Shown: positions 11,896-63,750 of the stretch, piece by piece
Layout: each line of letters opens with the position of its first letter
Position numbering within the stretch: position 1 is the stretch's first letter
Origin: Marsupella aquatica
Taxonomy: Eukaryota; Plantae; Marchantiophyta
NCBI GenBank assembly: GCA_973895155.1
Contig: OZ316891.1
Span: forward strand, 25,419,899 to 25,483,898
Length of the DNA stretch: 64,000 bases
Direction: 5' to 3'
The notes under the pieces: model-generated
The model's database searches: none
The model's input: only the letters and a program-made list of their open reading frames with translations
What the model was told of the DNA's origin: nothing
Program-made: the position numbers and the translations under genes

Positions 11896-12164
11896 TAACC
11901 CCAATTTAAGGAAAACCAAACTTTGGAAATTCCAAAAATCACTAAATATTATTATTTTAATAAAAAGGGGGCGACATGACGCGTGGCTGCGCGTGAAACC
12001 CTGAAAATGACTGCAACGTCACATTTTAACCAATCCAACTTGACGGGACCAAGAGACATGCTCACGCGAATAATAATAATAGAGAAATAAATCTTTGAGA
12101 TCCTTTATATATGATAACCAGTATATAAGGAGTTTACAAATGGTTTCTAGAACGACAATACAAA

Positions 12165-13691
12165 TTAATCTGATCTCATGCCGACTATTATTTTGGAAGC
12201 GTCCAAAATTGGGCGCCTGTTAAATTGCTCTACTAGATATCTATCTCCATGCCTCTGAATCACAGGGTCTTCCCATAGAGTATGATTATAATCATAATCT
12301 CTAAAAATAGATTTAACTGACCAATCAGGATAATCTCTTCCATTGGCAATGACAAGTGGCTCACAAGAGTTTGCTAGCTTGCTAAGATACAGAATCAGCA
12401 AGTTAATCAGGAAACTGTCGTCGACCGACCCAAAATATTTGGGCGGAAATAATGATCCAACAACAGGATCTAAACAAGCATGAAATGCATCGGATTTGAT
12501 AAGCATTATATTTTGCTGCAAATACGCCTTTGTATAAATTCCAACCTTCTCAAAACACTTCAAAAATATCCGCTTATTTGATGTCACCCCATCGCATAAG
12601 TAACAATGAGACTGATCCCAAATATACTTAAATGAAGCCATTTCCATCGCAGTAAAAATAGATGCTAAAATCTGATCTAAAAGGTTCTTCCCAAGAGAGG
12701 ACCAGATCCCTACATCAAAATTCTCAAAACAGAATCTCAAGAATTCGTGAAGATGAGGCCTTGGAAAAACGTATATATTCCCAATCCAAATTCCAATTGA
12801 GACCGCCATCTGTCGGGAATGCGGTGCAGTGTAACAGAGTAGATGCTCCACGTCTAAAACTATGAGCCCATTTTCTCTACTGCAATGAATCTCCTGTAGA
12901 GAAACACAAGAAGATGCATGAGCCCGTATGGATGTACTCACGCAAATGGTCGCGTCACATATTACAGAGACAACATCCTCTACACTCTGGCCATTGATAA
13001 GTGACGTCTGTTGAAGTGCTTGATAAGAACTTGATCCGCATGTCTCTACACGTACAGATGCTCCCATATATCCTCGTTCAGATCCCAATCGATCTCGATG
13101 TAGATTTCTAATCGACCAGATGGGATAATCGAACTTGTTAGCGAACGCAAGACAAAGCCTTGAATTTGATAGCTTTTGTAAATATGGAATGAGATCATCC
13201 CTCAAAAAGACATCATCCAACGATCCTTGAAACAACTTAGCGAACAATAATCCGCATACAGCTGTCTGGCATGTATGGGAAGGACAGGCATCAATCTGGA
13301 TTATATTCTCTGGTCGATAATCTTGAAACATATCACGTAGTCTCTCGATAGATTTGAAGACAACAGTCTTATAATTTTTCTTCACATAACCAAGATTCCA
13401 GCAATGATCCCGCGTGAACACATATATTAGCTGCAACAGGTTGGTGCTCGACAACACTTCTGAAAGTATCTGATAAACCAGTTTATCGTCGAGAATAGAC
13501 CAGACCATCACATCAAAATGATCATAACAGAATTTTATAAGATCATGAAGATGCGGCCTTGGAACGACACACAGAGATCCGATACGAATTCCGGGTGTCA
13601 ACTTGAGTTGAGGAGTATATTTTGAAACGGAGCACAGGAAGTTTTCCAGTCCTAAAACTAGAAGTTGACGCGACCTGCTCCACTTAGACAC
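12165..13691 (-). CDS. Element A cargo gene, last exon: two FCP1/NIF (HAD) phosphatase-like domains, catalytic DxDxT degenerate
   Basis: Two copies of L(L/I)VL..E.(F/L)LC...PRPHLH..(I/L).FC...FDV.(V/I)WS...W/F.(R/Q).HC...FK/LK...NI..I. Confidence 0.8.
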   Translation of the reverse strand: MSKWSRSRQLLVLGLENFLCSVSKYTPQLKLTPGIRIGSLCVVPRPHLHDLIKFCYDHFDVMVWSILDDKLVYQILSEVLSSTNLLQLIYVFTRDHCWNLGYVKKNYKTVVFKSIERLRDMFQDYRPENIIQIDACPSHTCQTAVCGLLFAKLFQGSLDDVFLRDDLIPYLQKLSNSRLCLAFANKFDYPIWSIRNLHRDRLGSERGYMGASVRVETCGSSSYQALQQTSLINGQSVEDVVSVICDATICVSTSIRAHASSCVSLQEIHCSRENGLIVLDVEHLLCYTAPHSRQMAVSIGIWIGNIYVFPRPHLHEFLRFCFENFDVGIWSSLGKNLLDQILASIFTAMEMASFKYIWDQSHCYLCDGVTSNKRIFLKCFEKVGIYTKAYLQQNIMLIKSDAFHACLDPVVGSLFPPKYFGSVDDSFLINLLILYLSKLANSCEPLVIANGRDYPDWSVKSIFRDYDYNHTLWEDPVIQRHGDRYLVEQFNRRPILDASKIIVGMRSD

Positions 13692-13822
13692 CTGTAAATG
13701 AACAATTTGATTCTCATATTATGCAATTGCAAACAACCATGCAACCGGGCGCGTCACTCCCAAAATATAAAGTTCAATTTCAATCAATTTATAAATAATA
13801 ATTGATAATAAACAATAAACGT

Positions 13823-14730
13823 TTACTTATTGGACTTATCCCGGGCTTCTATAGCATGGTCTTTTTTGGCAGATAAGTATTTCATAAATTCGTCAAACTT
13901 TTCTAAATGGTCTTTATTCCCCTGATTACGAATGATCACATTTCTTCTCCACAGATTCGTCTTATCAATATAATCTTTCTCAAGATTTTCTTGAGAGAAC
14001 GTTGGAATCCCATATCCACTAAGGAGCTCGCAGAATGTCAACTTGTCAATTGACATGTCGCATAGATATGGATATAGTTTCTTTCTAAAAAATAGGTCAT
14101 CATCAAGCCCAGAATATGCATCGGGATACAGCGATGAATAGAAGTCATTAAGGCTCGTCTTATATGCAGCATCATTGATAAGAATGACATTCTCGATGTT
14201 GTAATCTTTAATATCGGCGACAATGTTGGAGAGACATTTGACAAATAAGGGGATGTCATTATTATTCTTCCCAATAAGTCGAGTTGATTCTTGTTCCCAT
14301 ATAAATTTAATACGTTTCAAAACTTCGGGTCGAAGTATCAGCCTTACACAAGATAGAATATTCTATTTGAACATGCACGACCAGATTGCAATGTCGTATA
14401 GATCTGCCACCTTCTCAAGAAATTCCATTAAATCAGGCCTTGGATAGATAACCTTGTGCATCTGTCTCACACCCCTTGACCAAATGGGCATCCCAGGGCT
14501 GATCTTCTCTGACCAGATAAGTACCCAATTCAGATAAAAAATTACAAGTCTCTTATGAACCGGTGACTTCTTTGTCGATGGATTAGGCGCCATCTGTACC
14601 TGTGATTTTTGTGCCGAAGGGTTTCAAGAACGTACTAGAATGGTCTGTTTGTTTCCCGCCTCCGGACGATCACCGGACTTCCAGACTAGTGCCTTTGATA
14701 CTCGATCAGGGGGTTTTGGGATAGGCTTTT
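13823..14730 (-). pseudogene. Element A cargo gene exon: third FCP1/NIF-like domain (in-frame stop)
   Basis: KRLVIFYLNWVL...YPRPDLMEFL...YDIAIWS...FIWEQ...FVKCL...ENVILINDAAYK (ORFs 14363-14593, 13823-14320). Confidence 0.75.
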
Positions 14731-14885
14731 GTAAAACATTAAGAAATGAAAATAAGTTTATAACACGAACGGTCGCGTGACTACAAAGAGAGACACTGAA
14801 ATGAAGTGTATTACCTATACAAGACGGTCGTTCAGTGCTGGAATTCCGCCGGAAATGTCAATCATAGCAGCACGGATCCCGGTAA

Positions 14886-15622
14886 CTAGGTTACTTGCGG
14901 ACGTCGGCTTGCGGACGTCGGCTTGCGGAAGTCCATGTCAAATAACGACAAAACTATCTCCCGACGGAATTTCTCAATTTGATCCGCGGCAAAATTAATT
15001 TTGTTTTCTTGACACAACCACTTGGCGTATCTCAAGATAAACACACCACAACTGTGGCCATCACTCTGGTGAGGAATATCATTCCGATATATCCGTTCCC
15101 AACCTGAGAGATCCAAGTTGACACCAGTTCTCCAGCCAATTTCATCGGCGTAGTACTTCCCAACAATATCTAGCACCCCAGGATTTTGTCGATTATGAAC
15201 TAGAGAATCTAGGTACTGGAGCCGTTTCTCCTTCGGATACACAACTACCAATGACCAATGTTCTTTCACAGCATTGTGTACTGGAAAGACCAGTTTGTCG
15301 TATTCACTGATTTTTAGCGGAAATTCCTTTGTCCAAGCTGCTCTCTCCTCATCAAAAATGGTAGGATCCATGGAGAGAAGCTCAAAATGGTGTGTTTGGA
15401 AGAATTTGACAAGGTCTGACTTTCCAACTCTATCGAGAATCAGTTCGAGAAACTCAAATAAGCGTTAATTATATCATCGGTGAGCAACTCGCGCGGTCTC
15501 AGACACATCATATGTTTCCTCTTGATCGAGTGTTGTAAGAACTTGGTCAATAGCTCTTCCATATCCTTAGAAGGATCAAGGCATTGATCTATTCGACTAG
15601 CCAAATTTTTAAAAAACTGCAA
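14886..15622 (-). pseudogene. Element A cargo gene exon: Ulp1/C48 SUMO-protease domain
   Basis: CLRPRELLTDDIINAYL ... PVHN..EHWSL ... YLDSL ... PHQSDGHSCGVF; His-Asp-Cys triad present; frameshift near 15440. Confidence 0.9.
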
Positions 15623-15878: not shown

Positions 15879-17132
15879 TTACAAAGGTTGGAGCGATGAG
15901 GCGGGAAGACCTTCAAATGGTTGTGGCATTTGATTCAGATATTCCACAATCTGGGAATCCGATTCCAAAATATCCGGTGCCACAATTTCTGCGCAAGTGA
16001 CCTCTGCAATATATCGGGGTCGAGACCACAAACCCGGTTGCGTCAAGTCAGCTGTTAGTCTCTTAACGACTTGGGCCGAGTCTGGTGCCAAAGACGTTCC
16101 CAGGTCTTTCACTCGATTCTCGGAAAAGCGGACATTATTGATGATTGTCTCCATTCTGGATGCAGTGGCAGTCTTCTCTTCGGTAATCAAAAGACCCTTG
16201 CAATATTGCAAAGCAAGGACTGCCTGGACTCGGAGCTGCTCCGATGAATATTTATTCCAATCATCCAATGAGACCGTACTTAAGGGTGGATCGTTAAATT
16301 CAAACTCCGGGCGAAGAAAATAGTCTAATATTTTTTTCTTTACTGCAATTGAGGGTGAAGAAGGCTTCTTCAAATTCAGCTTTATTTTTGGTAGACGTTG
16401 TGCCTCAAGAATAAGCAAAAGATCCTTGGCCCTCTTGGCCTCCTTCCTCGCTGCCTCCAGTCTTGCGGCTTCTTCTCTCTCCAGTCTTGCAGAATCGACC
16501 TTTTCCGCCTCCAACTTCTCCGCCTCCACCCTCTTCGGTCTTGCGGTCTCGTCCGCCATCCTCTCGACCAGCAGCCTCTCAACCGCCACACTCTCCACCT
16601 TGGCCCTATTTGCCTCTGTCACTAAGAGGACTCTCGCAGCCTCCGTTTTCTCAGCCTGGGCTTTCTCAGCCTCCGCGTTCTCAGCCTCTGCTTTCTCGGC
16701 CTTTGCTTCCTCCGCCTCCGCTTCCTCTGCCTGGGCTTTCTCCGCCTCCACTTTCTCCGCCTCCGCTTTCTCAGCCTAGGCTTTCTCAGCCTCCGCTTTC
16801 TCCGCCTCCGCTTTCTCAGCCTGGGCTTTCTCAGCCTGGGCTTTCTCAGCCTGGGCTTTCTTTGCCTTGGCTTTCTTTGCCTTGGCTTTCTTTGCCTCGG
16901 CTTTCTCAGCCTTGGTTTTCTTAGCCTGGGTTTTCTCAGCCAGGGCTTTCTCAGCCAGGGCTTTCTCAGCCAGGGCTTTCTCCGCCTCGGTTTTCTCCGC
17001 CTGGGCTTTCTCAGCCTGGCTTTCTCCGCCTATGCTTTCTCAGCCTGGGCTTTCTCAGCCTCCACTTTCTCCTTCTTCTTTGTGGCAGTTGCTTTTCTAG
17101 CTGCCGCCTTTTTCTTCTTAGCCTCCTTCTTT
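15879..17132 (-). pseudogene. Element A cargo gene exon: AEKA(Q/E) coiled-coil repeats
   Basis: 15-bp tandem repeats GCTTTCTCAGCCTGG (~16640-17070) encoding AEKAQ/AEKAE; continues from 30638 once the Gypsy is removed. Confidence 0.75.
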
Positions 17133-18481
17133 TGTGGTATGGGTGTCCCTGCAATTTTTTCTGGAAACTTGTTTATTTTTAGCATATCACAAGATTTACT
17201 TACACTTTAGACACCTTCCGGCCAACATTTACTTGTTCTGGACACTTATAGAAATATTTGACATCTCCGGCTTTCCTGACGATTCCTAGTGTACTTTGCC
17301 CGACGCTGTGACCAGCGCCCGTTTCTTTTACTCAAGACGCTGCGGAAGCGTCCAACCTCCTCATGACGCTTTTGGCAGTGCCCGACCGCCACCAAGACTC
17401 TATGAGGATTTCGACCGACGCTGTGGAAAGCGTCAGCTTCAACACACGACGCTGTGAGCAGCGTCCGTTGGTTTTACTTAAGACGCTTCTAGCAGCGTCC
17501 AGATTCTCCCGACGCTTCTAGCAGCGTCCGCTCAACACTTAGTTTTTGAAGTAGATTACTAGTAAAGTAGTATTCTACCACCCTTGTTGAAGTACTTATG
17601 CTGTGCTTCTCCCTTGTTTAGTTTTAAGCTTGGAAAGGCACGACTGTTCTTACCTCCTCCATTTTAGGATTCCAGCACTTATAAGACAGAGTAGAATGCT
17701 CATTTGAAGTAGAGAGAAATAGAGTTAATACTGTATTCAGAATTGAGTCTTCTGAATAGTTTTCTCCTCCTTCCATTGTAACAAGGCATGCTGTGAGTGT
17801 TTTGTATGGAAGTAAAGCTATATTGATTGAAGTTAAGATTGAATTCAAGAGATTCCTGTGGTGATTGAATTCAGTTGCAGATTTCTGAAACTCGTATTGA
17901 ATTCACTGCTAGGCTTGCTTGCAGAGTCGGGATTCGCTAGCCAATTCAAGAATAGTTAATGATAAATGAGAAGTAAATTCTGATTCTCAGAGTAGTTAGT
18001 ACTGTTGCTTTGATTCTGGAATATGGTTTAGAGTTTGACTGAATTGCGTATCGCTGATGTCAAACCATGTTGACGGCATTTTAAATCATATCATTCATTT
18101 GCAATCAGAAAGCTTCTGCTTCATCAGATTGAGAATTCCATTATCATTAACCTTTGTGTTTTGAAGAGTGAGATGGATGAATTATGAGATAGATTTCATG
18201 TCTATACTGAGCCCAAATCCTTTCTGAAGGAGTGGCAGTAGCTTGTAGTCTCTAAATCCTTACTCATTTCTTCTCTAATTCATAAATCAGAAGTTCAGTT
18301 ACTTTGTTGTTTGTTTATTCGATTTTTTTTATTGAGAAGTGAAGTCAACATAGAGCTCAAGACTCTAAATCACTCGGAGTGATAAAAGTTATACAATTCA
18401 TTCTGAAATCTGTTCTTAAAGGGATCGAAACCCTGGTTTTAGGTGAGGAGAGTCACTTTTGATACTTAGCACTATACGACA
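17133..18481 (+). repeat. Gypsy 5' LTR (1349 bp)
   Basis: Near-identical to 29250-30637 apart from a 39-bp indel. Confidence 0.96.
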
Positions 18482-18487
18482 TCTTTT

Positions 18488-18505
18488 TGGCGCCGCTGCC
18501 GGGGA
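18488..18505 (+). promoter_or_regulatory. Primer-binding site (tRNA-Asp type, as in Athila)
   Basis: TGGCGCCGCTGCCGGGGA just after the 5' LTR. Confidence 0.85.
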
Positions 18506-19699
18506 ACGAATTTAAGATTGAATTGACGTACAGGCAGTGTATGCCAGAAGGAGCTAGACGGGAGAGGAATTCACGTTCTACTATAATTGTGAAGATGCGT
18601 CATCACTCTAGTTAAAAAGATGAAGAGCTTCCATTTCGAGGTGATGCCGTACTCTATCCAAAGCGCCCCGGAAGCTCTCTTAAGAGTATTGGAAAAATTT
18701 GTGGTGCCAAACTTAAGAGAAGAAACCGCCCTCCCACCAGAAAAGGCCTCACAGAGAGGAGCTGTTGCTCGTCAAGTTGCTTTGGAGATAGTCGAAGACA
18801 CCAAAGACACTTTGAGTGACAAGTGAAGTTATTCTAACGTTGCTCGGGACGTATGATTTGTAAAATTGTCCAACCATCCTGGTTCGTGTGACCGATGCCA
18901 CCTATCCGATCTTTGGGAACATTAAGAATTAGGAATTTGAGGAATCGTTATGTTAATTCTTGGGTTCTGAGCCTGAGAGGGAGGAATGGCATACATTGGT
19001 TAACTATCACCTGGTGGGAAGATGAAAGTTTGCATTTAGTAATATTAAGGCTGAATGGTAGGATCACACAGGAGTGATATTTAGTCATTTCCATTCGGGA
19101 GTTAGCGGAAAGAATCATGCACCAGGAATTGCGTAGAAGATTAGGAAGGAGTTAGACGTCTGATTAGTAGGATGGCCTAGTGTAGCGTACCATGTGGTAA
19201 AGAAATTTCAGGGTGAAGGAAGTCGGAGATTATGGGGAACGCCCGGTTCCAGTAATCGCCACCGTAAAGGAGATAAGGAAGGACGCCGCGAAGAGCGTCC
19301 AATGCGATTCGTCCCAGAAGATTCCGCAAGTCAGGACGCTTCGAGTAGCGTCCGATCCCAGTGGACGCTGTGAGCAGCGTCCGGTGGAATCTGTGACGAA
19401 CCAACGTGCGCGACGCTTCTGGTGTGCCTTTCCGCGTCTCAACCTGAAGGACGCACCAGAGAAAACGAGGTTTTAGAATCTCGGCTGGTCACTGAAGGGA
19501 AGTATTAGCTACGGGATAGCAAGGGGGAGGAATCATGCAAGGGATGTTGAACGACACTACGGGAAGTCACTTTGAGGAAGCAGGTTCATATCTCCCGGAG
19601 TGGGGTGATAACGTCGCACCTAAATGGTGACTCCTTGCATAAAGACTCCTGAGGAGCGGGTCTGGTGTCTCAAAATCACCCGTGCTTGGAGAATGAGGG

Positions 19700-22600
19700 A
19701 TGTCTGAGGGAGATCCACCGAATAAAAGAAAACCTACCAAGACCTCCAGTAATTCGGATGCTGCAAAATTAGTAGTGACCCCTCGCACATTGTTACCCGA
19801 ATTCCAGTCACCAGGAGCACCTGCACCGGGTAGTGTGTGGAAACAAGTGGGATCTATTCAAGAGGCAAGTGGCTCTTTGGAAAGGCCCACGTCGACCCGA
19901 CCCCTGTTTGTAAATCTTCGTTCAGGTCCAAAACTTATTGGTTCTCAAAAGACCAAGCTCCGCCAGCAGACAGTACGTTCGGTGAACCAAATTGACTCTG
20001 GTGTGGATAGTACCACTGAGAGGGCCTTATCTCATACCGAAGGAAGAAATTTGGGTTTGCCCGAGAATACAGTTGCAGAATCGCTGGCCCAAGATAATTC
20101 TGTCGATCTTTCACAATTGGATAATCCAGAACCACTGAGTGAAGCCGGTGGTTCGTCTTCTAGTGAGACAAGCAGCAGTTCAGGCTTGGGCAGCCCAAAC
20201 CCATTTGCTACCCGATCAGCTCTTCCTTTCGTTACCCTCCTAGCTCCAACCACGATGGCTCGAAATAATGTGAGGTACGACCGGTTCTTCGGTACTTCCA
20301 AGGAGGATGCAGAGGTGTATTTGAAAGAATTTGAAGCTGCAGCTGCATCCAATGGACAGAGTCAAGACGCTGAAAAAGCCAATCTGTTTGGTGGTCTAAT
20401 GAAAAAGGGTGCTCAGAAATGGTATGACCGTTTTCCGGACAAGCAGGATTGGGGGAAATTGAAGGCTGCTTTCTTGGCCAAATATAAAGAAGAAGGAGCA
20501 GCTGCGCGTGCCTTTGCCCGAATCTCACATCTGCACATGAAGAAACATGGGTCTGTGAGGAAATATGCCGACAAATTATTGGATTTGGTAGATCAATATA
20601 ATCCAGCTACCTCGAAATCTACTATCAAGGACTGGTTTATTAACGGTTTACCCTCCAGGATTGCTCGTTACGTGAGACGAGAAGGTGGCACCACTTTGGA
20701 AGAAGTACAAGAGGCAGCCCAGAAGTACGTAGACTCGGAGATTTCAGAGAGAAAACGAGTTAAGAAGGACCTGAAGAAAGACAAAAGAAAGAAGAAGAAA
20801 ATGTCCAGGTCTAAATCTGACTCGGAGACGGAATCAAGTGGAAGTAGCACTAGTAAGGAGGACGAGAGTACAAATTCGAGCACTAGTGATAGTTCAAGCT
20901 CAAGTTCCGACTCAGAATCCGTTGCTCCTAAAAAGAAGAAATCCTCTGTAAAAGGGAATAATAAAGTTCCCAACCAGAAGAAGATGGATCGCATGATGGA
21001 AGAACTCTCTGGCCAATTGTCCAAGTTGAATGTCAATATCGCCGCGGTAAAACCAGTACGAAGGTTGCCTGCTCCCATGAGAATGAACGTATGGTGCACC
21101 CGATGCAGTCAGCAGGGCCATTACCCGAACGAGTGCCCCACATTACGAACCCCGGTGAATTATGTAGATGGTCAAGAAGAGGCTGAGGAGTATGAGTACG
21201 ATCCCACGTATACCGTCCAAACAGCACCCCCTGGACAGTATTTCCCACCACCTCCTGCTTCCAGACCGACTTGGGGACCACCTAAGCCCACTTTCAATAA
21301 ACCAACGTCAAGACCACCCATGGGACCCCCGGGAGGATACCCACCACGAGGAATGCCGCGTCAAAAAGGGGCTTGTTGGAATTGTGGCCAACCTGATCAT
21401 TATTCACCCCAGTGCCCTTATCCCAAACAGGAGGTGGGGTATACACCTGTCTGTGGGAACTGTGGAAAAGAAGGACACTTACCGGTGGAATGCCCGAATC
21501 CGGCTAAGCCTAGGCTGATGGTTCGATTTGCTCAAGAGCCAGTTAAAGAAGCAAGTCGACCTGAAGCCAAGATTCGGATGGTTTATTCTGAAGAGATGGA
21601 GCAATGCAGCTTCATTCAACATATGGATGTAAATCGGGTGGAATTAAAGCCAGATTCACTTTTTCATCAACCAGTATCCGGGGTGGTGCCTGATGTCTTG
21701 GTAAGTCATTTAGTGAAACCTGAAGTAGTTGGTATGCCGAATGATCGAGTTCAGAATCGGGATAAAGTTCTGACTAATATTTACGCAACTACTCGTTCGA
21801 AGAAAAAGGAGACCAAGAAGCACGAGCATCAGAAGGTCGCGAAAGCTCCCAAGGATGAAGGGCGCAAGCCATGTAAGGAAGGCCTCGACAAAGAAGACGA
21901 CCCTGCTTATGACCGATATGACCCAAAATACTTCTTGCCCGACATCTCTTTGGAAGTGAAAGACCATCTGGAAGAGCTAGTTAAGGAGCAAGTGCAATCT
22001 CCTAACCCACCAGTAGTAGTCAAAGCTAAAGAGCCACTGAAAAATCCAGGTTATGATATTGTTGAAGATGTCAAGAATCATCCTGCACATATCACCATTG
22101 GGGAATTATTACAGGACAATCCGGTTTATAGGCGACAGCTGAGGAGCCTCCTTGCAGGAAAACGGAGGAAGAAGAAGTTACCTTCGGTGGATGTGCTACG
22201 AACAGAGTGGGAGGACAAAGGACCGATGGAAATTGAGGTTCAAATCCAGGGGTGTGTCATTCGGAGAGTTCCTGTGGATGGAGGAGCCAGCGTTAATCTG
22301 ATTACACAGTCAGCAGCATTTAATTTGGGTTTCACTAAGTTTGAGCCCACTCCCAAGATTTTGCGCATGGCGGATCAGTCTCGTGTGGTACCCATAGGGA
22401 AGCTGACCAGAGTAGAAACTTTGATTGCTGGTGTCCCTTTTCTGTTGGATTATGTGGTTATTAATCCGGAAATACCATCCAGCTTTCCTGTTTTGTTAGG
22501 CCGACCATGGTTGTATAAGGCTCAAGTTCAGGTTAATTGGCAATCTCAAGAGCTTTCATTTGGGAAGCCTAAGGTGACTGTTAGTTGGGTTCCGGAACCA

Positions 22601-25726: not shown

Positions 25727-26109
25727 AATTCCACCTGGGACAGGTTGCAATTTAAGTGGAGGGCGGTAGTTATACTTAGTTAGAATTAGTGACCCTCCCT
25801 AGTAAGTATTCGGCATATTTTTTTAATTTTTTTTAGTTACTTTCAGTTTTTACATTGGACGCTGTGAAAAGCGTCCATTGTAACTCGACGCTGGGGAAGC
25901 GTCCACTTAGTTTACAAAGGACGTTGTGCAGAGGTCCGCTTTTGTATTAGTTCAGTTGCATGAGACGCTGTGAGCCGATGACTAGGCATCTTGTACAATG
26001 GCGGATTGCGACAGCTCAACGGGACGCTGAGGAGTAAGCAGTCGCGCTTCGCCCTAGTTCACTATGGAACACGATTCTCACTGAGCTTACGGAGCTAACA
26101 AGTCACGCG

Positions 26110-29100: not shown

Positions 29101-29172
29101 GATTCGGATATCTCCCAACTCCCGTCAATGATTTTGAGCACTACTTGGATTATTAAGCCAGAATATTATTAA
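26110..29172 (+). pseudogene. Gypsy extra 3' ORF (one frame, two internal stops) ending in a second retropepsin-like domain
   Basis: ORFs 26110-26484, 26560-28683 and 28696-29172 share one frame; the last has FVIDPGSRINFLS...LDFYIL...MILSTTWI. Confidence 0.65.
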
Positions 29173-47287: not shown

Positions 47288-47533
47288 CTGCTGCTCACCA
47301 TTCCTAGAGGGAGCGATTGTGATGCGAGGGTCCAGGGGAATGCTCCTTTTGGCGGTGGAGTGGCGCATATAGCATCCCCCATGCGTGTCTCTCCTGCTGG
47401 CTCTATTAATGGATATTTGAGTGGACCTATGGGTCGAGATGTGACGGGGATGTCTCCCGGGGGACGGAATAGACTATGAGACGCAAGGATGGGGGGTGGC
47501 TGTGCCAGGATATAATTTTGGCATAGTAGGAGG

Positions 47534-51417: not shown

Positions 51418-51694
51418 GGGGGACCGTGGCTTCCTGGATGATCTGACTGTTGAATGCCCTCTTATGTTGGGCTTGGGCTTGTGTTGGTGATTGATTTTCC
51501 CTTTTCCACTGTTTGGTGGTCGGGGGGCTGTGGGATATGCGCTGGTGATGTGTGCCTGTGCGCTGTGTGTTCGGCTTTGTTTTATGTCCCTTGGTCTGGC
51601 CTTCTGGTCTGTCTGTTTGCCCTCCCCGTGGGGCTTTTCGCGGGGGAACCAAAAATTATAAAAATGTTCCCATTCCAAGGAATATCGTTTTGCC

Positions 51695-54600: not shown

Positions 54601-55996
54601 TCGCATAGAGACCGGGGGGTATGAGTGGTAATGTCTCTTTAATATTGGTTCCATCATTGGTAATCTCCAAAATTTGTAGTGTGTCCTCTTCATCTGTCTT
54701 TGCCGTTCGCAGTTGGTATTTATTAGCGACTACGTCCCGAAAGCTTATCAAATTTCGAGTAGCTCGTGGGGCAAAGATTGCTGCATCAATATCAATAACT
54801 GTTCCTTGTGGGAATGTCACTGTTGCGGCTCCCTTACCTTCTTCTATCTGGTTTATACCCAAAATTGTGGTCATTGATCGTGTAGATGGGGTGATACTGT
54901 GGAAGTACTTCTTGTCTTTAAGAATTGTATGTGATGTTCCGCTGTCAATTATCCCAAGGTTGGGGTCATCTAATGAGGTGTGTATTGATGCTGGTGTTAC
55001 CATATGGGTCTCCTGTTCTTCAGGTTGTTGTGTAGGTGTTTCTTCCGGGTCCTGATAGTTAGCTAAGTCTTCCTCCATCTCCATATAGTTGCCTTCTGGA
55101 TTTTGCTTTAATTGGGCCCTTGCTTCTGTATGTCGTTTAGCTGCTTGGTCTGATGCCCATCAGTTCTTCTTTATGTGTCCTATTTTACCACACCGGTAAC
55201 ACAGCCTATCTTCTCTGATGTTATCAGGTGGTATGTTTCGTCTGCTGTCTTGGCCGCTTGCTCCTCGACCCCGTGAGTTGTATGAAAAACGGTTTCCTCG
55301 GCCTCTGGGATTTTGATTCCTGCTTCTGTCTTGATATCCGCCTCTGCCTCTTGATCTGCCTCGTCCCCTTTGGTTTCTCATATTATAATTTGTTTCTGGT
55401 TTTTGTGGTGGTGGGGCTGATCCTGCAGGTCGTTTTCTAGCGTTCTGCAGGGCAACGGTCTGCTGCTTCTCTTCTACCAGTAAATGTGCAATGAGGTCTG
55501 AGTAGACTGTAAATCTCATATTTCTGTACTGTGTACCGAGGGCTATATTTGCTTCTGGGAATGTGCTTAGTGTTTTGTCGATCATATCTGCATCAGGGAC
55601 CGGATGGCCACACAACTCCAATTGGGATGTGATTCTAAATAATGCGTTGTTGTAGCTGGCTATTGATGTGTAGTCCATCACTCGCAGGTTATACCAATCA
55701 CGGCGGGCTTCTGGGAGCCAGACTTCGCGCATATGGTCGAATCTTGATTTTAATTTATCCCATAGTAGGCGTGGGTTGACCTCGTTCATATATTGGGTTT
55801 TGAGTGGAGGAGCCAAATGCTGGCGTAATAAGAAAACGGCCTTAGCCTTTTGTTGTAGTGTCAGATTATTATCATTTATCAAAGTATCTTCGAGTTCCAG
55901 TGATGCAAAATATGTTTCTGCATCTACTGACCACGTTAGGTAGTTGTTGCCGTCTACTGAAAGGGCCTGAAAATGCAATTTCTCCAATGTTGCCAT
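51695..55996 (-). pseudogene. Copia gag-pol (gag, PR, INT, RT, RNase H start) with in-frame stops
   Basis: DGNNYLTW, CYRCGKIGH, IIDSGTSHTIL, WHYQLGHPG, DVCGPI, VDGAGEF, RARLVAKGYTQ, LYVDD, GYADAGY. Confidence 0.93.
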
Positions 55997-57342
55997 ATTT
56001 CTTGCACTTGTACTCGGGATTGTAATGCTCGGTGTGGTGGTGTATATATATAATACTTGGGTCTATCCAATTGGTAAATATATGCTTCGGGGAGTTATAG
56101 GTGCTGGTTCGAAGCACCTATAAGTCCAATTTCGGGATTTCACCGTAGCATTGTTGTTTCTAATTTGGCATAATGGCCATTCCCAAATCCTGCATTGGAT
56201 TCCTTGATGAAATAAGTTGGATGGAACAAAAAAATTAGACAAATCCGTCCTTACGGCAATGAAGATTGAGATCGCTAATGGATGCCTTCCTCATAGCAAT
56301 CTGATGTCTGGGCTCAATTTTTGCGTAAACTAGCATCACTTTTTAGGTGGGATTGTACTCAATTTTGGGGTAGTTAGGCGGTTACATAGGATTCCGGTGC
56401 CAAAAATGCAACATTCTTGGTAATTTTCTATGTAAAAACTATGATCTCTCAATATGTCTGTTGGGGCAGCCTAGGCAAAAAAAATCATTGAGCCAGTCGT
56501 GCTAATAACGTGTTGTAAACAAAGTAGATAATTGTAATCTTCCACACACTTCCATTATATCAAGGACTTATATAGTCCTAAGAGGTTAACATATTGGGTT
56601 AAGGTTAACCTACTCTAGTCTAGGGTTAAAGTAAACTATGGTTTATGACAGTGCCATCAACCACGATTGAACCTGTTTTGACCTTAAAGTGCAGAGGAAA
56701 TAATAGCCTGACTTTTGTTTGCGGACCTGTGGTCTCTGTTGGCATTGGAGGGAGAGGGATGAATACGGTCATTCTTGAGATGCACGATAAGTCCTGTTGG
56801 GTTAAAGTTAACCTTCTGTCAAAGGCATACTCCTCTGAATTCAATGTCGAATGGCACGCAAGTGGGTAATTGAGCATTTTGTCAATGGGATTTTTTCCAA
56901 AGACCTATGACACAAAGAAGTTGGTCGTCGGGGTAACTGGTATGCTTCCAGTCGACATTATGTATGGGTTTCAATATTTGAAACTCAACATGATGAAGCA
57001 CCAAGGCAATTTTTCTTTTGCAACGACCTGGACGTTAAGCAATTTACTTGAGAAAGCTGGATTATTATCGTCGGAGTCGGAGGAGCCTGGTGTTTTAATT
57101 GATAAGGATGTTGCATTTGCTCCCAAGTTTGATTTAGTCAAAGCAAAGCAATGGATAGAATCTTTGTCCAAGACGAGAAAGCTTCTAGCGGTGAATACAA
57201 ACCCTGTGCCCGAGAAAGCGCCAGAGAAAGCTCCAGAACCTACAACAGAGACCGCGGGAACTACAACAGCAACCTCTCAAAGAGCAGTGGGAAAACGAAA
57301 ACAAAGCCAAAGGAAACCTCCGGTTGAGAAGAAACTTCCGGT

Positions 57343-57500
57343 TGAGAAGCCGAGTACGAGAAGCCGAGTACGAGAAGCCGAGTACGAGAAGCCGAGTACG
57401 AGAAGCCGAGTACGAGAAGCCGAGTTGAGAAGCCGAGTATGAGAAGCCGAGTTGAGAAGCCAGTTGAGAAGCAACGTCTGGTTGAGAAGCCGAGTGCAAG
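57343..57500 (+). repeat. 14-bp tandem repeat GAGAAGCCGAGTAC within the exon
   Basis: About five perfect and several degenerate copies. Confidence 0.9.
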
Positions 57501-58282
57501 TGAAAGAGACCAAGACAGAAGAAGAAACAGAAAATTGACAGTGCCATCATGGATGATACTACAGAAAACCTGACAGTGCATTCACAAGATGTGGACGAGC
57601 AGTTGAACGCTCCTGAGGAGAAGAAGGTCTTAGAAGGTAATGAGGTATTGCAACAAATGGAGCAATATTATACGTTTGGGATCAATTCGATATTTTCTAT
57701 TCCTATAGACAGTATTTTCCCTGCGTCGGCAAGACTCTGTTATAGAATGTTGAATGCAGAACATGTAAAGGAGGTGGCCAATTCCATGATAAGAAATGCG
57801 GGGCATGAACCACACATAGCAGACTTGATTCCTTACACTACAAAACATAGAAACCTAATGCAGTATGACAGCACAGAATCAGATAGGAGGGACTTTGTAG
57901 CAGCCGTGAAAAAGGGCGAGGTTCAATTCCTTGCCATTAGCGGTCAACATTCGGCTAGAGCAGCCAGATGGATTCGAGAATGGGCAAACAAGGATGCCAA
58001 GCTGACAACATTGGCAAAAAAGCTGGAATTTTGAAAGTCAAGAATATTATCTCATCGAACACCATCATCAATATTAGTTGAGCATTCAATGCGATCTAAT
58101 GCGATCAATAGCACGATGGTGTTTGAGTCATGCTTCAAAGATACAGTCGTTCATGCTAGGCGACAATTTGTGGAATGTGGAAAACCTAGCCGGCCAAAAC
58201 ATGGGGACAACAAAACAAACGCTCAAGACAATCAAAAATTTCAGGTACGAAGTGTTACTGCTTGATGGGTACAATACCGTAG

Positions 58283-58676
58283 ATTCATGCACATTCAGTA
58301 GAATATTTCCACTGATATCTCCTAGTTTTGCGTTGGTCTGGGATGGTCCCAGTCCAAATGGATTCATGCACATTCAGTAAAATCTTTGTCCACTGATATC
58401 GTCTAGTTTTGTGTTGGACTGGGATGGTCCTAGTCCAAATGGATTCATGCACATTCAGTAGAATATTTCCACTGATATCGCCTAGTTTTGCGTTGGACTG
58501 GGATGGTCCCAGTCCAAATGGATTCATACACATTCAATAGATTATTTTTCCACTGATACTGTCTAGTTTTGTTCTGGACTGGGATGGTCCCAGTCCAAAC
58601 TAAATCATGCACTTTCAATAGAATATTTCCACTGATACTGTCTAGTTCTGTGTTGGACTGGGATGGTCTCAGTCCG
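58283..58676. repeat. Intronic ~80-bp tandem repeat x5, each unit containing the element-B palindrome
   Basis: ATTCATGCACATTCAGTAGAATATTTCCACTGAT...TTGGACTGGGA-TGG-TCCCAGTCCAA. Confidence 0.92.
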
Positions 58677-61242
58677 CACCTGAGTGCTATCAAACAATTG
58701 AGTTATGGAGAACTAACAGACTGTCCTTTTCAATTGTAGGATTGGTTGGCTCTTGCAAGAATGACCATGGGAAGGAAAGATTGTCGAAATGTTTACTGGT
58801 TACTGTTTGTGGACGATGCTCTTTTTGAGTTATGGAGTTTGGTATGCCAGTTGTGGTTGGATGGGAAACTTCCCGATGGAGCTGGGGTAGAAGGAAATGA
58901 GAAGTGTGAAAAAGCAGTTACTGTTGCCATGTTTCGTTGTTTTGATGGTGAGTTGATCTCACAACGAGACATCACAAGAATACTGACGCGGGTGAAGTCA
59001 GGAAAGGCATTGCTAAAGAAAGATGCCTCTAATAAATCAGACATGCCATCTATAGAGGAGTTGGCCAAAGATGTGAAGATCGTGCGGAAACTGAAGTCCC
59101 TTATTGAAGACTACTATTGCACCAAGGATGCGGTGAATTTCCCGGCAAATACTAATTGGGGGAAAGTAGTGGAGGTTCTTCCTACGCTAGCAATTGACTC
59201 AGAGTTCAGCAGGTGTCAAAGAGCCGCTGGCGAGGTCTATCTTGCTAACCTTTTAAAACCAAATCATACGCGGGAGAGCGCAATCTTGCCGACGGCATTG
59301 GCATTCCGCCTAGATGATATATACTGCCAGAAATTTGACCCTACCATGGGCTACATTTTTTAGCGACAATCTCATGAAGACCATTGATCCAGAGTCATTG
59401 CAAGAAGCTCCTCCGACCTGCCCTCTTGCCATTGTTGATTTTAGCCGGCTTCCGCAAAAACAATGGACTAAAGCAGAGATTCTTGTTCTCTTTGAATACA
59501 TTGTGGAGCTTCCACAAAATCCCACGATTGTTGTGACGATAACAGTTCATCCTGGACAACTTGCATTGAATGTCCATGGTGCCCTTCGTAAACTGGGACA
59601 AGAGAAAGCTTTGACCATTCACATTGAGTATGGGAGTTATTCTCAAGATGATCAACCGCACCCTCATGACTCATGTTGGGGTGGGGGGATTGAAGAAGTT
59701 ATCTTTGCGGGGATTTCTCGAGATGAAGACGTCAATTGAAATGAAGTTTTCAAGCCCAACTATCCAAAGCCAAAATTCTTGTATACTGCAAAGGATGTTG
59801 ATTACGAAGTATGCAAGATCGACAAGGGAAAGGGGAAGGCGAAGGAATCAGATGAGGGGACACAAAACAACAACCTAAAAGTGGTTTTGGACCCGGAAGA
59901 GGCCGTCAAGATTATGAATATGGCCCCTCGATTTGAGACAGTTGGCAGTCGCGGAGGGTGGGTTAATCCTCATGCCAAACCCACGCGGATGATCTGAAGG
60001 ATTATTGAATCCTTGTCAGAACCAGGAGATTTGGTTCTAGATTTTTTCTCCGATGGCCAAGTCATGAAGACATCATTTTTTTGCGATAGGGAATGCTTTG
60101 TTTATTGTGACTCTCACTCCGAGAGGCATTTTGTGGAAGCTTTTGCTTCCTACCTTTGCGAGAGAGTTCCCTCACTTAAAGCTCATTGTGAATCACTTGC
60201 TGAAAATTCTTGACAATGGGCTACCACTGTTGCGGCTGTAGCTATCGCTGTTGAATCCGATGGTTTTGAGTCTGAAGATGTTGCTGACAAAGTGGATGAA
60301 GGCGTAGAGGCATCAAAGGAGGCATATGTCAAGAATTTGGATGACCGTGTTGGTCAAGGTGAGCCTTATGATGTAGATGATGATATTGGACTTGTACCGA
60401 ACCGTTCATCTGGTTTAGATGACATCCCTCCGGGGCCCAATGAAGTTCAAGTTGATGATAACTTGGACAAGGATGATCCCAATCCATCAACGCCGGGAGG
60501 ACAGATGGAGCAACTGGAAGGAGCAAGGGTTGATACGTTTGATCATCTTTCTTCAACCAATCTGATCAATGAAGGCGCAACGAGGCTTGGAGATTCAAAT
60601 GAAGCTGAAACTAAAGAATTGACTCGGGGGGAGACCGAGGGGGAGACTGGCGGATTGCCTGACATTCCAATCAATCCAGGAGGAAATGCATCAACGGCTG
60701 CTGACAACCAGGCAGGTGCTTCAACTTGTCCTGACACACTTTTCAGCTTCTGATGACAAATTGGTGTTCGTTTGTTCACACTCGGGGAGTCCTATTGTCC
60801 TTTCGCTCTCAAAAAAAAGGAAATAGAGTTGGATCAACTGGATGGAGGTCATTGGAATGCGACGCACGATGTTACGTGTGGAAAAGTGGGCCAAATCGAG
60901 GCCAAGAAATATCATTGGATGTTGCTCCTTCAATTCTCAATAAGGAGGAGTATAAGAGTGGAGAATTGGGGTTGATAACTCCTGTTTGGACTTCACCTTA
61001 TTGGGTAGAACAAAGTACTTCAAATGTCAATTTTGAAATCCAACAGGAGCTTGGTGCTGACATGATTATTGATGAATACGGATCTCTTATTTTGGAATGA
61101 AATTCAGCCTTTGACTTTGTATTTATTCATATCAATCTAAAATACTTCTCGGTCTCACAGAATGCGCTCACCAATTAAAGTCTCCATATCCGTCTACACA
61201 TTGTGAGGCTTCTAAAAATGGTATGTAGGTTAATTTTCTTTT

Positions 61243-62377
61243 TTGTCAGCCATTGTCTTGTATTTTTGGACTGAGACAATCCTAATCCAAAGTTCACTTT
61301 TGGTCTTTTCTCTAAGAATGGTGTTTGGTGCACTTGCAGAATCGAGACCTGGTCCCCTCAAGCGGAAGTTGCTGATTTTGGACCTTAATAAAATACTTTG
61401 GGATTCTATTGAATTCCAAAGCAAGGGCACATCCAGGAATATTGTCACCTCAAGTGGAGTGCATTGGGATAGATCAAATGGAACTAGTCGCATGTATACA
61501 GAGAGGCCAGGGCTCCATGAGTTTCTAAAGTTGGTTTTTGACCGGTTTGACGTTGCAATTTGGACATGTGCTGGGATGCCGCGAACAGTGAAAATGTTGA
61601 ACATGACGTTCACAATTGAGGAGCGGTTTGAAACTGAAGTTTGTATTCACACAGGTGGAAACCTTTGACACAGGCATTCAAAGGCGTGACATTACAAATG
61701 GAAAGGCAAATGTGCTATTGAAGGATTTTCGGGTGGTATGGAGTGCATTTGGAAATCTATATGATGAAACCAACACACTCCTTGTGGATGACTCCCCCTT
61801 GAAGGCATTTGCCAACCCAGACATGACCGGACTATTTCCAGTGCCCTACACGCATGCCAATCGTGGAGACAATTTTCTTCTAACAATTCTTTGGCCATGT
61901 CTTGAGAAACTGTCACATGCAAGTGACATTCGTTGTTATCTTCTCCTAAACTCTCCAAAGTGGTCTCTATTGCACATTAAGAGAGACAAGGCAAAAAATG
62001 AGATTACTTATAATCAACTTAGTAAGAGATGTGCAGCAAAAATTTGGAACTCACAGTATAGGCATAGTGTGCTGGACCTCAATAGCAATGAGATTCCTTG
62101 GGCTGTGAAGCACCGTATATGTAGCTTACGTCCTGAGGTGGAACTTGACGATGCACTAGTCACCTCACTTGCTAGATCATTTGTAGGACGGGAATATTCA
62201 GGTCTGTATAGAGAAAATCCTAGACATTTTTGGTGGGAGATTATAGCAGTTAGGAACAACACCACCAAATTTCATCTCCCTGAAGATAAAGGGAGTTGCA
62301 ACCGTGACATTAGGGTAGATAGTAAAGGAGACAAAGGCACATGCTCAAATAAATATTGTAAGGAACACTTTGTTTAG
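61243..62377 (+). pseudogene. Element B FCP1/NIF phosphatase-like gene (frameshift ~61620)
   Basis: RKLLILDLNKIL...ERPGLHEFLK...FDVAIWT...LLKDF...TNTLLVDDSPLKAFANP...LFP. Confidence 0.88.
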
Positions 62378-62619
62378 AGATCTGACTCATGTTAAGCCCA
62401 TTAGATAGTAAAAATGGGTGCCAGCCCTGGATATTCATTGTAAGTTTGGACACAATTGTATATAATTATTTTCACACATTATCAATCAATGGTCCTTGCC
62501 TGGGCTTCTTTGTGCGGAAATGTTTTTACAAGTATGATCTCTATCCCATGGTTCTTTGTGAACTAATAAGTAATATAATACTATTATAATTAATATAATA
62601 CTAATAAGATTTGGCCTAT

Positions 62620-62749
62620 AAAGTGTACATTTAGGTATCAAAAAGTGTACATTTGGGCTTCATAAAGTGTACATTTGGGGACATAAAAGTGTACATTTCA
62701 GGACTGATTTGTGAACAAAAGAAAATACACTTTTAATGAATAGGCTGAT
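62620..62749. repeat. Element B opposite TIR and subterminal repeats
   Basis: AAAGTGTACATTT x4, then AATACACTTTTAATGAATAGGCTGAT. Confidence 0.9.
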
Positions 62750-63084
62750 CCTGGTCTATCAATGAAGTCGTAAGCTACCAAGGTGACCGTCGCCCAAGTA
62801 CTACTATAAGTAACTATGTGGCACCACTTCTTACTAACTGTTCGAATGACGATCAAGTCCATGACCCGATTTCTAATCGCATTATCCGACAAATTCCCAA
62901 GACAGTGGAAAAACTTTTTGACTAATGGCCAAATATATTTCTCGACAATATCGTTCGGAAAACCGGGTATCAGGTCTTCAGCTTGACTCCATATCATGTT
63001 TCGGTTCATAACCTTTGCACGTGCAATGCGCTCCATCATCATTTGACGATGAGATTTTTGATTCATGTCAAAGGACTGCAACAT
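62750..63084 (-). pseudogene. F-box-like gene, 5' half (element A)
   Basis: DLIPGFPNDIVEKYIWP...IRTVSKKWCHIV...W resembles the plant F-box LIPGLP.D...R.VSK.W pattern with an insertion. Confidence 0.6.
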
Positions 63085-63118
63085 AATATGGAAAAGATTA
63101 AGAACAAGAACCTATCCA

Positions 63119-63669
63119 TTAAGAACTGGGACCACCTAATTTCTGAGAAAATCTACCAAACCTTTCAATTAGAACATCTCGTTCTTCCTCATCTAAATAG
63201 TTATATTTGTTCGTAAAAAATATGATTTTGTCAAAAGTACTAGTCCCAAGAACAGATATTTCTGGAAGCATAGAAATATCCTGTCGAATAACTCGACAGA
63301 CTGAGTCAAACTCCAACTCGTCAGTTTCGGGTATGTAGTAAAGTCCTTTATTTGCGTCATCGACAATCCGGTTTGCTTGTTTGAGAATAGCCCATAACCT
63401 TGTATTTGTAACTAAAAAGTTCCACTTCTTGTTACAAGCTCCAAGCCAAATAAGGTCTCGGACCCTATCGATAACCAAATCAATATCGGGGTGTCGGTAT
63501 CCAGGCAATCCTTCAATTGAAATAAAGTGTTTGTAGAGTATTGGCCAAATGTTTGAAATGACCAAAACATTTGGTATTCCTCCAATGAGACTAGAGGAGG
63601 TTTCATCCAGTGTATCCCATATTGTTTTCTATTTCCTTTCATGAGATGAAAGGAAATCTTGAGCCTCAT
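63119..63669 (-). CDS. Second F-box-like paralog (element A)
   Basis: LIGGIPNVLVISNIWP...RVRDLIWLGACNKKWNFLV...LW; aligns by eye with the neighbouring gene. Confidence 0.55.
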
Positions 63670-63750
63670 TCAAAAGTTGGCTCATCCTGCTTTTATCATA
63701 TCACAAAACATTGTTAGAAGACATACGACGCGCTTGGTCACGTAAGTTAA

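What the first reader, a model, noticed from the sequence alone, without database searches (positions are those of the whole stretch)
11977..63745. Element A is marked by a spaced palindrome (C/G)ACGCG-N6-CGCGT(G/C) found only in its introns and intergenic gaps
Seen copies: 11977 TGACGCG-tggctg-CGCGTGA; 13737 CCATGCA-accggg-CGCGTCA (CpG-decayed); ~14763 ACACG-aacggt-CGCGTGA; 31169 TCACGCG-catatt-CGCGTGA; 31208 CCACGCG-catgtt-TGCGTGA; 33024 TGATGCG-accgtt-CGCGTGA; 34370 ACACGCG-catggt-CGCGTCG; 63726 CGACGCG-cttggt-CACGTAA. The arms and the 6-nt spacer length are conserved while spacer sequence varies. The CG-rich sites sit in short AT-rich introns and spacers, recurring along the element. Inference: binding sites for a dimeric element-encoded protein (parS-like for the ParB-like protein, or VANC-like target motifs) that label the whole element.
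Basis: partly seen in the sequence, partly recalled or inferred. Interest (0 to 1): 0.88.

Follow-up and report, generated by a model that had tools for sequence, protein, structure and literature searches.

The report
ParB-type landing sites in plant transposon
A large jumping gene, likely of a liverwort-like plant, carries nine copies of one short mirror-image DNA word in the small non-coding gaps between its genes and encodes a protein predicted to have the fold of bacterial ParB, which likely binds these words so that the element can recognise its own copies and likely resist silencing.

Summary
Confirmed and extended. ACGCG-N6-CGCGT occurs nine times (one more than reported), always in short intron-like gaps of one gene cassette (ParB-fold gene, ULP1, NIF, F-box-like), in 8 of 11 gaps; 8 hits against 0.04 expected. 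All seven arm mismatches are CpG transitions; related copies in four public runs restore four of them and duplicate motif-bearing units in tandem. The spacer is biased, not free, and there is no covariation, so it reads as a double-stranded DNA site. The cassette protein's domain models as ParB/Sulfiredoxin fold; its methyltransferase domain and a DNA-binding helix-turn-helix were not confirmed. A second, nested transposon encodes a distant ParB paralogue and carries about 41 copies of a different palindrome; neither element has the other's site. Best reading: family-specific landing sites for the element's ParB-fold protein, likely anti-silencing (0.45; binder alone about 0.65). Binding is untested. 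Against: a nested Ty3 without detectable ParB carries a near-identical site in its LTRs, and this dead copy's motif CpGs decayed like their neighbours. The idea is in print for algal transposons; no land-plant case was found. New variant; interest 0.62.

The parts
11979..11994 (.). Palindrome copy, perfect arms; in the gap between NIF gene and DUF4216-like exon
   Evidence: TAG 37 nt downstream on the minus strand
12940..12955 (.).
   Evidence: state in related copies not seen (9 rows hidden)
13739..13754 (.). Palindrome copy, two CpG transitions here, perfect in related copies
   Evidence: 13740 T>C and 13743 A>G in 97-100% of depth in 4 of 4 runs; 67-nt tandem duplication over it in 2 runs
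14763..14778 (.). Palindrome copy, one CpG transition here, perfect in related copies
   Evidence: 14765 A>G in 92-97% of depth in 4 of 4 runs
31171..31186 (.). Palindrome copy, perfect; second unit of a 39-nt tandem pair in a 128-nt intron
31210..31225 (.). Palindrome copy, one CpG transition; first unit of the tandem pair
33026..33041 (.). Palindrome copy in the 93-nt intron of the ParB-fold gene; perfect in related copies
   Evidence: 33027 T>C in 96-100% of depth in 4 of 4 runs; 35- to 38-nt tandem duplications in 3 runs
34372..34387 (.). Palindrome copy, perfect; gap between F-box-like stop and ParB-fold start
   Evidence: 41-nt tandem duplication in 1 run
63728..63743 (.). Palindrome copy, one CpG transition; in the part of Element A beyond Element B
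33083..34321 (-). Exon 1 of the ParB-fold gene: PH-like N-terminal domain and ParB/Srx-fold domain with GQHT motif; 3 in-frame stops in this copy
31264..32989 (-). Exons 2-3 of the same gene; C-terminal part resembles a beta-class methyltransferase in motif order by eye only; broken in this copy
   Evidence: no profile or fold hit
15880..31135 (-). Acidic/Ala-Glu repeat gene of the cassette, split by the Ty3 insertion 17133-30637 (target duplication TCTTT)
14886..15600 (-). ULP1-type SUMO protease gene (frameshifted)
   Evidence: Pfam Peptidase_C48 E 3e-16
12168..14600 (-). Tandem NIF/FCP1-like phosphatase genes (two by Pfam, a third by eye)
   Evidence: Pfam NIF E 1.2e-25, 2 stretches
62754..64000 (-). 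Continuation of Element A: F-box-like genes; joins 34596 once Element B is removed; runs out of the window
   Evidence: empty-site loose end in 3 of 4 runs; Pfam F-box E 0.007, below cut-off
3202..11960 (-). CACTA-type backbone next to the cassette: truncated DUF4216-like exon, TnpA-like exons, subterminal TATGACTAG repeats, CACTAC end at 3202; CpG-poor; no palindrome; interrupted by an LTR element (7806-11169) and a MITE (5700-6042)
   Evidence: (DUF4216 E 0.19, Transposase_24 E 0.095, both weak)
34597..62749 (.). Element B, a 28-kb nested DNA transposon (TIR ATCAGCCTATTC, 4-bp target duplication CCTG) with its own ParB-paralogue/methyltransferase-like gene (about 56870-60210, +), NIF gene and own palindrome TTGGAYTNGGA-N3-TCCNARTCCAA

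Best explanation
The palindrome is a family-conserved DNA word in the intron-like gaps of a transposon gene cassette, and it is likely the landing site of the cassette's own protein, predicted to have a ParB fold, which would bind as a dimer and likely keep the cassette unmethylated and transcribed. Shown: the site, its place in gaps, its restoration and tandem duplication in related copies, the fold match of a relative's model, a second element with a paralogue and a different site. Inferred: a dimer reads the two arms (centres 11 bp apart, one helical turn); one site per gap tiles a 10-kb operon-like array without touching codons, in the only free stretch of 66-130-nt introns, upstream of branch point and acceptor; binding or spreading excludes the host CG/CHG machinery, and the four CpGs per site make it a methylation-sensitive switch; protein and site diversify together between families. 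Odds: about 0.65 that the ParB-fold protein is the binder, about 0.7 of that for an anti-silencing role.
For: Enrichment and placement. Family conservation: 4 of 7 arm mismatches are restored in 92-100% of depth in 4 of 4 runs (2 coded organisms, 2 studies). All 3 listed 'goes back' joints outside the peptide-repeat gene, and one 38-nt insert, contain a site (6 joints hidden), as VANC targets evolve (PMC5735166, passages). No two-sided change in 7 pairs x 9 copies; the biased spacer occurs in both orientations on the transcribed strand. Model of a 35% identical relative (pLDDT 72.9): top 8 VIA rows are ParB/Srx-fold chains (PadC Z 8.9, rmsd 2.7, 97 aligned; KorB Z 8.6), Foldseek's top 9 rows are ParB, Noc or Srx (E 0.008-0.03). 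Element B's paralogue (hhalign 93.9%, E 1.6e-7, 18% identity) goes with 41 copies of another palindrome, 0 in A, and A's site is 0 in B. Cassette exons keep CpG (o/e 0.53-1.22; about 1.09 at family level in 12880-14860) while the adjoining CACTA exons have 0.17-0.32 and other elements 0.42-0.81. ParB-fold anti-silencing on a palindrome is established for Shigella VirB (PMC10653881, passages).
Against: No binding data. No helix-turn-helix or methyltransferase domain could be assigned in Element A's protein (second model pLDDT 36). Foldseek gave no row with E <= 0.001 and Z 8.9 is moderate. The motif is GQHT, without the arginine patch recalled for CTP-clamp ParBs. A nested Ty3 with no detected ParB has 15 hits of ACGCT-N6-AGCGT against 0.16 expected, which suggests a factor not tied to Element A. 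In this copy motif CpGs were lost at the same rate as others (7 of 36 vs 15 of 80), and CpG depletion starts abruptly next to the 11979 site, so the CpG contrast may reflect the cassette's recent arrival rather than protection. One diverged contig shows a degenerate site at 13739 and minor contigs skip the 12940, 13739 or 33026 gaps. Three of 11 gaps lack a site. The pairing of protein and site rests on two elements in one window.
Confidence: 0.45

Rival explanations
1. The ParB-fold protein binds the sites, but to repress its own cassette (as KorB does on its operators) or to bridge and condense the giant element for transposition, not to counter host methylation.
For: KorB is the second VIA match (Z 8.6); sites sit just before ORF starts in several gaps; motif CpGs were not protected in this copy.
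Against: Sites are internal, not seen at the visible CACTAC end, which has its own TATGACTAG repeats; the cassette lineage keeps its CpGs; tandem gain of sites matches anti-silencing targets.
Confidence: 0.2
2. The sites recruit a host transcription factor (each arm contains a CGCG box of the kind recalled for CAMTA, or an unknown dimeric factor) that drives the element in some tissue or stress; the ParB-fold gene is unrelated cargo.
For: The nested Ty3 carries 6-7 copies per LTR and 3 in its leader of GACGCT-N6-AGCGTC, the same geometry with one change per arm, and no detected ParB. LTRs commonly hold host factor sites (own knowledge).
Against: Element B, with a ParB paralogue, uses an unrelated palindrome in the same kind of places, including a single copy in a short intron at 61266; strict inverted 6-nt spacing is not a recalled CAMTA feature (one search gave listings only).
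Confidence: 0.17
3. Another element protein binds the sites: the TnpA-like product of the adjoining CACTA backbone or the acidic repeat protein.
For: TnpA binds family-specific CpG-containing motifs and causes hypomethylation (10.64898/2026.08.24.746577, section 4); TnpA-like exons adjoin the cassette (weak).
Against: In that paper TnpA binds clustered motifs at the termini; here the terminus has a different repeat and no palindrome; Element B shows the ParB-palindrome pairing without a TnpA-like gene among the ORFs scanned.
Confidence: 0.08
4. The palindrome acts in the pre-mRNA as a 5-7-bp hairpin that sets splicing of a polycistronic transcript.
For: In 7 of 8 gaps a YAG follows 35-49 nt after the site on the transcribed strand, and in the eighth related copies have one at 34 nt.
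Against: 0 two-sided changes, covariation below shuffles; arms invariant in sequence; spacer bias in both orientations; the hairpin appears in the lowest-energy fold of only about 3 of 8 gaps; short introns leave no other free place.
Confidence: 0.06
5. The copies are functionless relics of a tiny mobile element or of intron duplication.
For: One gap holds a 39-nt tandem pair; sites duplicate locally in related copies.
Against: With the motif masked, 28 pairs of gaps share only short AT-rich matches (scores 11-23; some above mononucleotide shuffles, none long), while CpG-rich arms stay intact in the family.
Confidence: 0.04

Closest known systems
PAG3 (ParB-like + 2OG oxygenase) and PAG2 (N6 methylase + SET) of red-algal Plavaka/EnSpm transposons (10.1101/2025.02.11.637652; passages and section 8 read)
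   Same: CACTA-related giant transposon, mobile accessory cassette, ParB-like gene, inverted repeats proposed as its own binding sites; untested.
   Different: There: tandem arrays next to PAG3 and a 2OG oxygenase. Here: mostly one 16-bp site per intron or gap along about 10 kb, a PH-like N-terminus, ULP1/NIF/F-box-like cargo, a land-plant-type host with CG and CHG decay.
Ectocarpus Sola1-1_Ec32 ParB-like + N4/N6 methyltransferase protein (PMC12477816; passages)
   Same: ParB-like domain followed by a methyltransferase-like domain in a giant DNA transposon; Element B matches this layout (PF01555 E 1.7e-5, below cut-off).
   Different: No palindrome is mentioned in that text (0 occurrences of 'palindrom'); Element A's methyltransferase domain was not confirmed.
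VANDAL/VANC anti-silencing (PMC5735166; passages)
   Same: Family-specific short motif in introns and non-coding DNA, gained by tandem duplication; protein and motif diverge together.
   Different: VANC motifs are 8-9-nt non-palindromic words in dense same-orientation arrays of Mutator-like elements; here a spaced CpG-rich palindrome and a ParB-fold candidate.
Bacterial ParB/parS, KorB/OB, Shigella VirB (PMC10653881; passages; structures)
   Same: ParB/Srx fold; palindromic site of about 16 bp; VirB counters silencing without ParA.
   Different: No ParA seen; CTP motif and helix-turn-helix not found; eukaryotic, intron-containing gene.
Spm/CACTA TnpA (10.64898/2026.08.24.746577; abstract and section 4)
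   Same: Element-encoded, sequence-specific regulator of its own family.
   Different: TnpA motifs cluster at termini; these sites are internal, and the terminus here has another repeat.

Membership tests
ParB/parS-type site-and-protein system | ParB/Srx-fold N-terminal domain | tested here: met
   Model of a 35% identical relative: top 8 VIA rows and top 9 Foldseek rows are ParB/Srx-fold chains; Z 8.9, E 0.008; moderate scores.
ParB/parS-type site-and-protein system | Palindromic site of about 16 bp on the same element | tested here: met
ParB/parS-type site-and-protein system | CTP-binding arginine motif (recalled GxxRxxA) | tested here: not met
   Relatives read GQH(T/S) at that place; nucleotide binding itself untested.
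ParB/parS-type site-and-protein system | Helix-turn-helix that reads the site; dimer formation | tested here: inconclusive
   Exon-2 relative folded poorly (pLDDT 36); no profile hit.
ParB/parS-type site-and-protein system | Protein binds and spreads from the site | not testable with these tools
   Needs EMSA, DAP-seq or ChIP.
ParB-methyltransferase transposon accessory protein (Ectocarpus type) | N4/N6 methyltransferase domain fused behind ParB | tested here: inconclusive
   Element A: no hit, catalytic word reads DPSS/DCSV/DSTL in three relatives. Element B: PF01555 E 1.7e-5 below cut-off, M.RsrI E 0.017.
VANDAL/VANC system | Motif in non-coding DNA, gained by tandem duplication | tested here: met
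VANDAL/VANC system | Mutator-like element encoding a VANC protein | tested here: not met
   No MuDR transposase or VANC-type Pfam hit among 43 ORFs scanned; the element runs out of the window.
VANDAL/VANC system | Protein induces family-specific hypomethylation | not testable with these tools
   Only indirect CpG counts.
CACTA/EnSpm element | CACTA terminus with subterminal repeats | tested here: met
   CACTAC at 3202, TATGACTAG repeats in 3202-4400; one end only.
CACTA/EnSpm element | TnpD and TnpA genes in one unit with the cassette, both termini and target duplication | tested here: inconclusive
   Weak DUF4216 and Transposase_24 hits, DUF4216-like exon truncated beside the cassette; far end outside the window, so the cassette may be a separate element inserted in a CACTA.

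The most novel reading that the evidence does not exclude
Early land-plant transposons run a bacteria-derived lock-and-key anti-silencing system: each giant family carries a ParB-fold protein and tiles its introns with its own palindrome, the pairs diversify between unrelated transposon backbones, and an LTR retrotransposon without the protein has built arrays of a near-cognate site in its LTRs to free-ride on it.
Probability: 0.15. Interest if true: 0.87.

Novelty: new variant of a known kind. Interest (0 to 1): 0.62.

Why it matters
VANC and TnpA are the plant transposon proteins shown to defend their own family against methylation. ParB-like accessory genes with nearby inverted repeats have been proposed to do the same in algae but nobody has named a site precisely enough to test. 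This window supplies a defined 16-bp site, a second element with a paralogue and a different 25-bp site as a built-in specificity control, and a near-cognate retrotransposon site, in a plant lineage that is likely close to tractable liverwort models. A two-by-two binding test would decide whether eukaryotic transposons use ParB-fold proteins as family-specific readers, and could yield a new programmable anti-silencing module.

Tried and rejected
No whole genome is held, so the genome-wide motif scan could not be run. No RNA holder was listed; no evidence on expression. Word-index search for longer relatives of the ParB part found none of 126 candidates; exon-2 searches found 1 and 3 proteins. 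Alignment-based locus searches had no conserved stretch; a NIF query in metagenomes gave 2 distant loci (26-34% identity), 0 of 2 with the motif; viral contigs gave no relative. Pfam, NCBIfam and PDB sequence searches did not name the ParB domain convincingly (ParBc_2 E 0.19, DUF6551 E 0.038 in 4 of 26). P0028 was dropped from later alignments as an apparent false hit, and P0007 for its out-of-frame tail. The exon-2 model was too poor to search. The protein atlas and the complex predictor were not available, so dimer formation has no verdict. Serial Helitron 3' ends were considered: only 2 of 9 sites have a CTRR within 10 nt (read by eye, output), rejected. A direct link to Marchantia MpDN4MT1 4mC (10.1101/2021.02.12.428880; passages) was not tested. 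Literature searches for a land-plant ParB-palindrome transposon found none: (the library lacks most subscription papers; Iyer et al. 2011, cited for green-algal cases, was not seen; PMC4738411 passages, describe ParB-HTH fusions of chlorophyte Dam proteins, not this family). The Bostrychia supplement, not seen, may show those repeats' sequence and spacing.

Full report
Observation. All eight listed copies are present as written, and a ninth lies at 12940. With at most one mismatch the window holds 11 hits at a 6-nt spacer and 0 or 1 at each other spacer from 0 to 12. The 11,170-bp cassette holds 8 of them against 0.04 expected from 200 dinucleotide shuffles; the other 3 (8629, 21346, 36654) lie in an LTR element and in Ty3 gag, carry transversions and do not match the spacer bias. 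Allowing only CpG-type transitions gives 9 hits, all in Element A. All 9 fall in gaps that make up 13% of the cassette, and 8 of 11 gaps have a site; I drew the gap borders from ORF ends and GT/AG signals, without RNA data. Across 18 half-sites the outer A is invariant, all 7 arm mismatches are CpG transitions, and flank and spacer are biased, giving roughly T(C/G)ACGCG(A/C)(A/C)(C/T) per half.

Anatomy. The window is a stack of nested plant transposons. Element A reads on the minus strand as a dense array: F-box-like genes, a ParB-fold gene, an acidic repeat gene, ULP1 (Pfam E 3e-16), NIF phosphatases (E 1.2e-25), then a truncated DUF4216-like exon, TnpA-like exons (both weak hits) and a CACTAC end at 3202. 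It is interrupted by a Ty3 (17133-30637), an LTR element (7806-11169), a MITE (5700-6042) and the 28-kb Element B (34597-62749, target duplication CCTG). Contigs from 3 of 4 runs join 34596 to the sequence at 62754, which shows that the 63728 site belongs to Element A. The far end is outside the window, so it is open whether the cassette is part of the CACTA or a separate element inserted into its DUF4216 exon near 11960. The only named relatives of the protein are two Calypogeia fissa (liverwort) proteins among 10 looked up; 28 of 38 tabulated differences between this copy and the family majority are C-to-T changes in CG or CHG context, the plant methylation signature. The copy is dead: the ParB-fold gene has stops and a frameshift.

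Related copies. Four public runs (2 coded organisms, 2 studies) laid 143-1424 contigs per stretch. At 13740, 13743, 14765 and 33027 the majority letter restores the perfect arm in 92-100% of depth in 4 of 4 runs. The three listed backward joints outside the peptide-repeat gene (33047 to 33013, 34411 to 34371, 13767 to 13701) and one 38-nt insert at 33048 all duplicate a site; 6 joints were hidden. Against: one diverged contig has a degenerate site at 13739, and minor contigs skip the 12940, 13739 or 33026 gaps.

DNA site or RNA hairpin. On the transcribed strand a YAG follows 35-49 nt after the site in 7 of 8 gaps, and at 34 nt in the eighth in related copies (14729). That could point to RNA, but 7 pairs in 9 copies show no two-sided change and less covariation than shuffles, the biased spacer appears in both orientations (14763 and 33026 are reverse complements), and the hairpin forms in about 3 of 8 lowest-energy folds. 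In introns of 66-130 nt this is also the only stretch free of splice signals (inference). Arm centres are 11 bp apart, the usual geometry for a dimer in adjacent major grooves (own knowledge).

The candidate protein. Exon 1 has 24 relatives among 1.84 billion representatives. A model of the closest (35% identity; pLDDT 72.9) matches PadC (Z 8.9, rmsd 2.7, 97 aligned), KorB (8.6) and six more ParB/Srx-fold chains before any other fold, with a PH-like N-terminus at Z about 5; Foldseek ranks ParB, Srx and Noc first, at E 0.008-0.03. The motif is GQHT rather than the arginine patch recalled for CTP clamps. The rest of the gene could not be assigned: no helix-turn-helix, and a methyltransferase resemblance by eye only.

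Internal replicate. Element B encodes a distant paralogue (hhalign 93.9%, 18% identity) followed by a methyltransferase-like part (PF01555 E 1.7e-5, below cut-off). It carries 41 matches (<=3 mismatches) to TTGGAYTNGGA-N3-TCCNARTCCAA: arrays at 40600-41700 and 42950-43300, five in an intron of its ParB gene, one in a short intron at 61266, one at 60463. Neither element has the other's site. The CACTA end has a third word, TATGACTAG, where TnpA would be expected to bind. The Ty3 complicates matters: 15 hits of ACGCT-N6-AGCGT against 0.16 expected, 6-7 per LTR and 3 in the leader, with no ParB similarity in its extra ORF.

Methylation history. Cassette exons have CpG o/e 0.53-1.22, about 1.09 at family level in 12880-14860, against 0.17-0.32 in the adjoining CACTA exons and 0.42-0.81 in the other elements. 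The active lineage thus escaped CpG decay. But the boundary is sharp beside the 11979 site, and in this copy motif CpGs were lost as often as others (7 of 36 vs 15 of 80), so recent capture of the cassette explains the contrast as well as protection does.

Mechanism. Most likely the ParB-fold protein binds the palindrome as a dimer, one site per gap tiles the array, and occupancy keeps host methylation off, with the site's four CpGs acting as a switch; sites are gained by tandem duplication and diverge with the protein. Shown: site, placement, conservation, duplication, fold match, second pair. Inferred: binding, dimer, anti-silencing. Confidence 0.45; repression or transposition role 0.20; host factor 0.17; TnpA or other cargo 0.08; RNA hairpin 0.06; relic 0.04.

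Comparison and novelty. It works like VANC (PMC5735166, passages) and VirB (PMC10653881, passages) but is a member of neither. The nearest kind is the ParB-like accessory gene of algal giant transposons, proposed to bind neighbouring inverted repeats (10.1101/2025.02.11.637652, section 8; PMC12477816, passages), untested there. Searches found no land-plant case. Unchecked AI notes of this scan describe similar pairs in a fungus, protists and a mussel; they are leads, not support. Verdict: real feature, new variant of a hypothesised kind, made testable by two nested pairs and a near-cognate retrotransposon site. Interest 0.62.

Noticed in passing
window 17302-17522, 19282-19381, 25858, 29419-29684: The nested Ty3 (LTR stretches 100% identical) carries GACGCT-N6-AGCGTC arrays in both LTRs, its leader and after pol; same geometry as Element A's site; no ParB detected in its extra ORF (26038-28683).
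   Followed up: partly
window 34597-62749: Element B: 28-kb DNA transposon with 4-bp target duplication, DUF7869-like transposase (E 0.0016), ParB-paralogue/methyltransferase-like gene, NIF gene and about 41 copies of its own 25-bp palindrome; superfamily not assigned.
   Followed up: partly
window 5700-6042: 343-bp MITE with the same terminal repeat type as Element B and target duplication ATAC, inside the TnpA-like region.
   Followed up: partly
window 7806-11169 and 34790-38139: Two inverted copies of a 3.36-kb non-autonomous LTR element (143-bp LTRs) carrying an ABC-transporter gene fragment (Pfam E 2.5e-13); the second copy's outer LTR is cut short, with Element B's neighbouring sequence apparently lost.
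   Followed up: no
window 11900-11960: Sharp switch from CpG-poor CACTA exons (o/e 0.13-0.29) to CpG-rich cassette (1.2), at a truncated DUF4216-like exon; possible cassette insertion point.
   Followed up: partly
window 15638-15662: A different spaced palindrome, CAGTACG-N11-CGTACTG, in the site-less gap upstream of ULP1; single copy, may be chance.
   Followed up: no
window 12064: A lone half-site (TCACGCGA) in the same gap as the 11979 copy.
   Followed up: no
window 43470-56655: A copia element holding an L1-type LINE (about 45314-51417) nested inside Element B.
   Followed up: no
window 1-3201: A second CACTA (DUF4218 E 1.9e-26) into whose transposase gene the CACTAC end at 3202 is inserted; also CpG-poor.
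   Followed up: no
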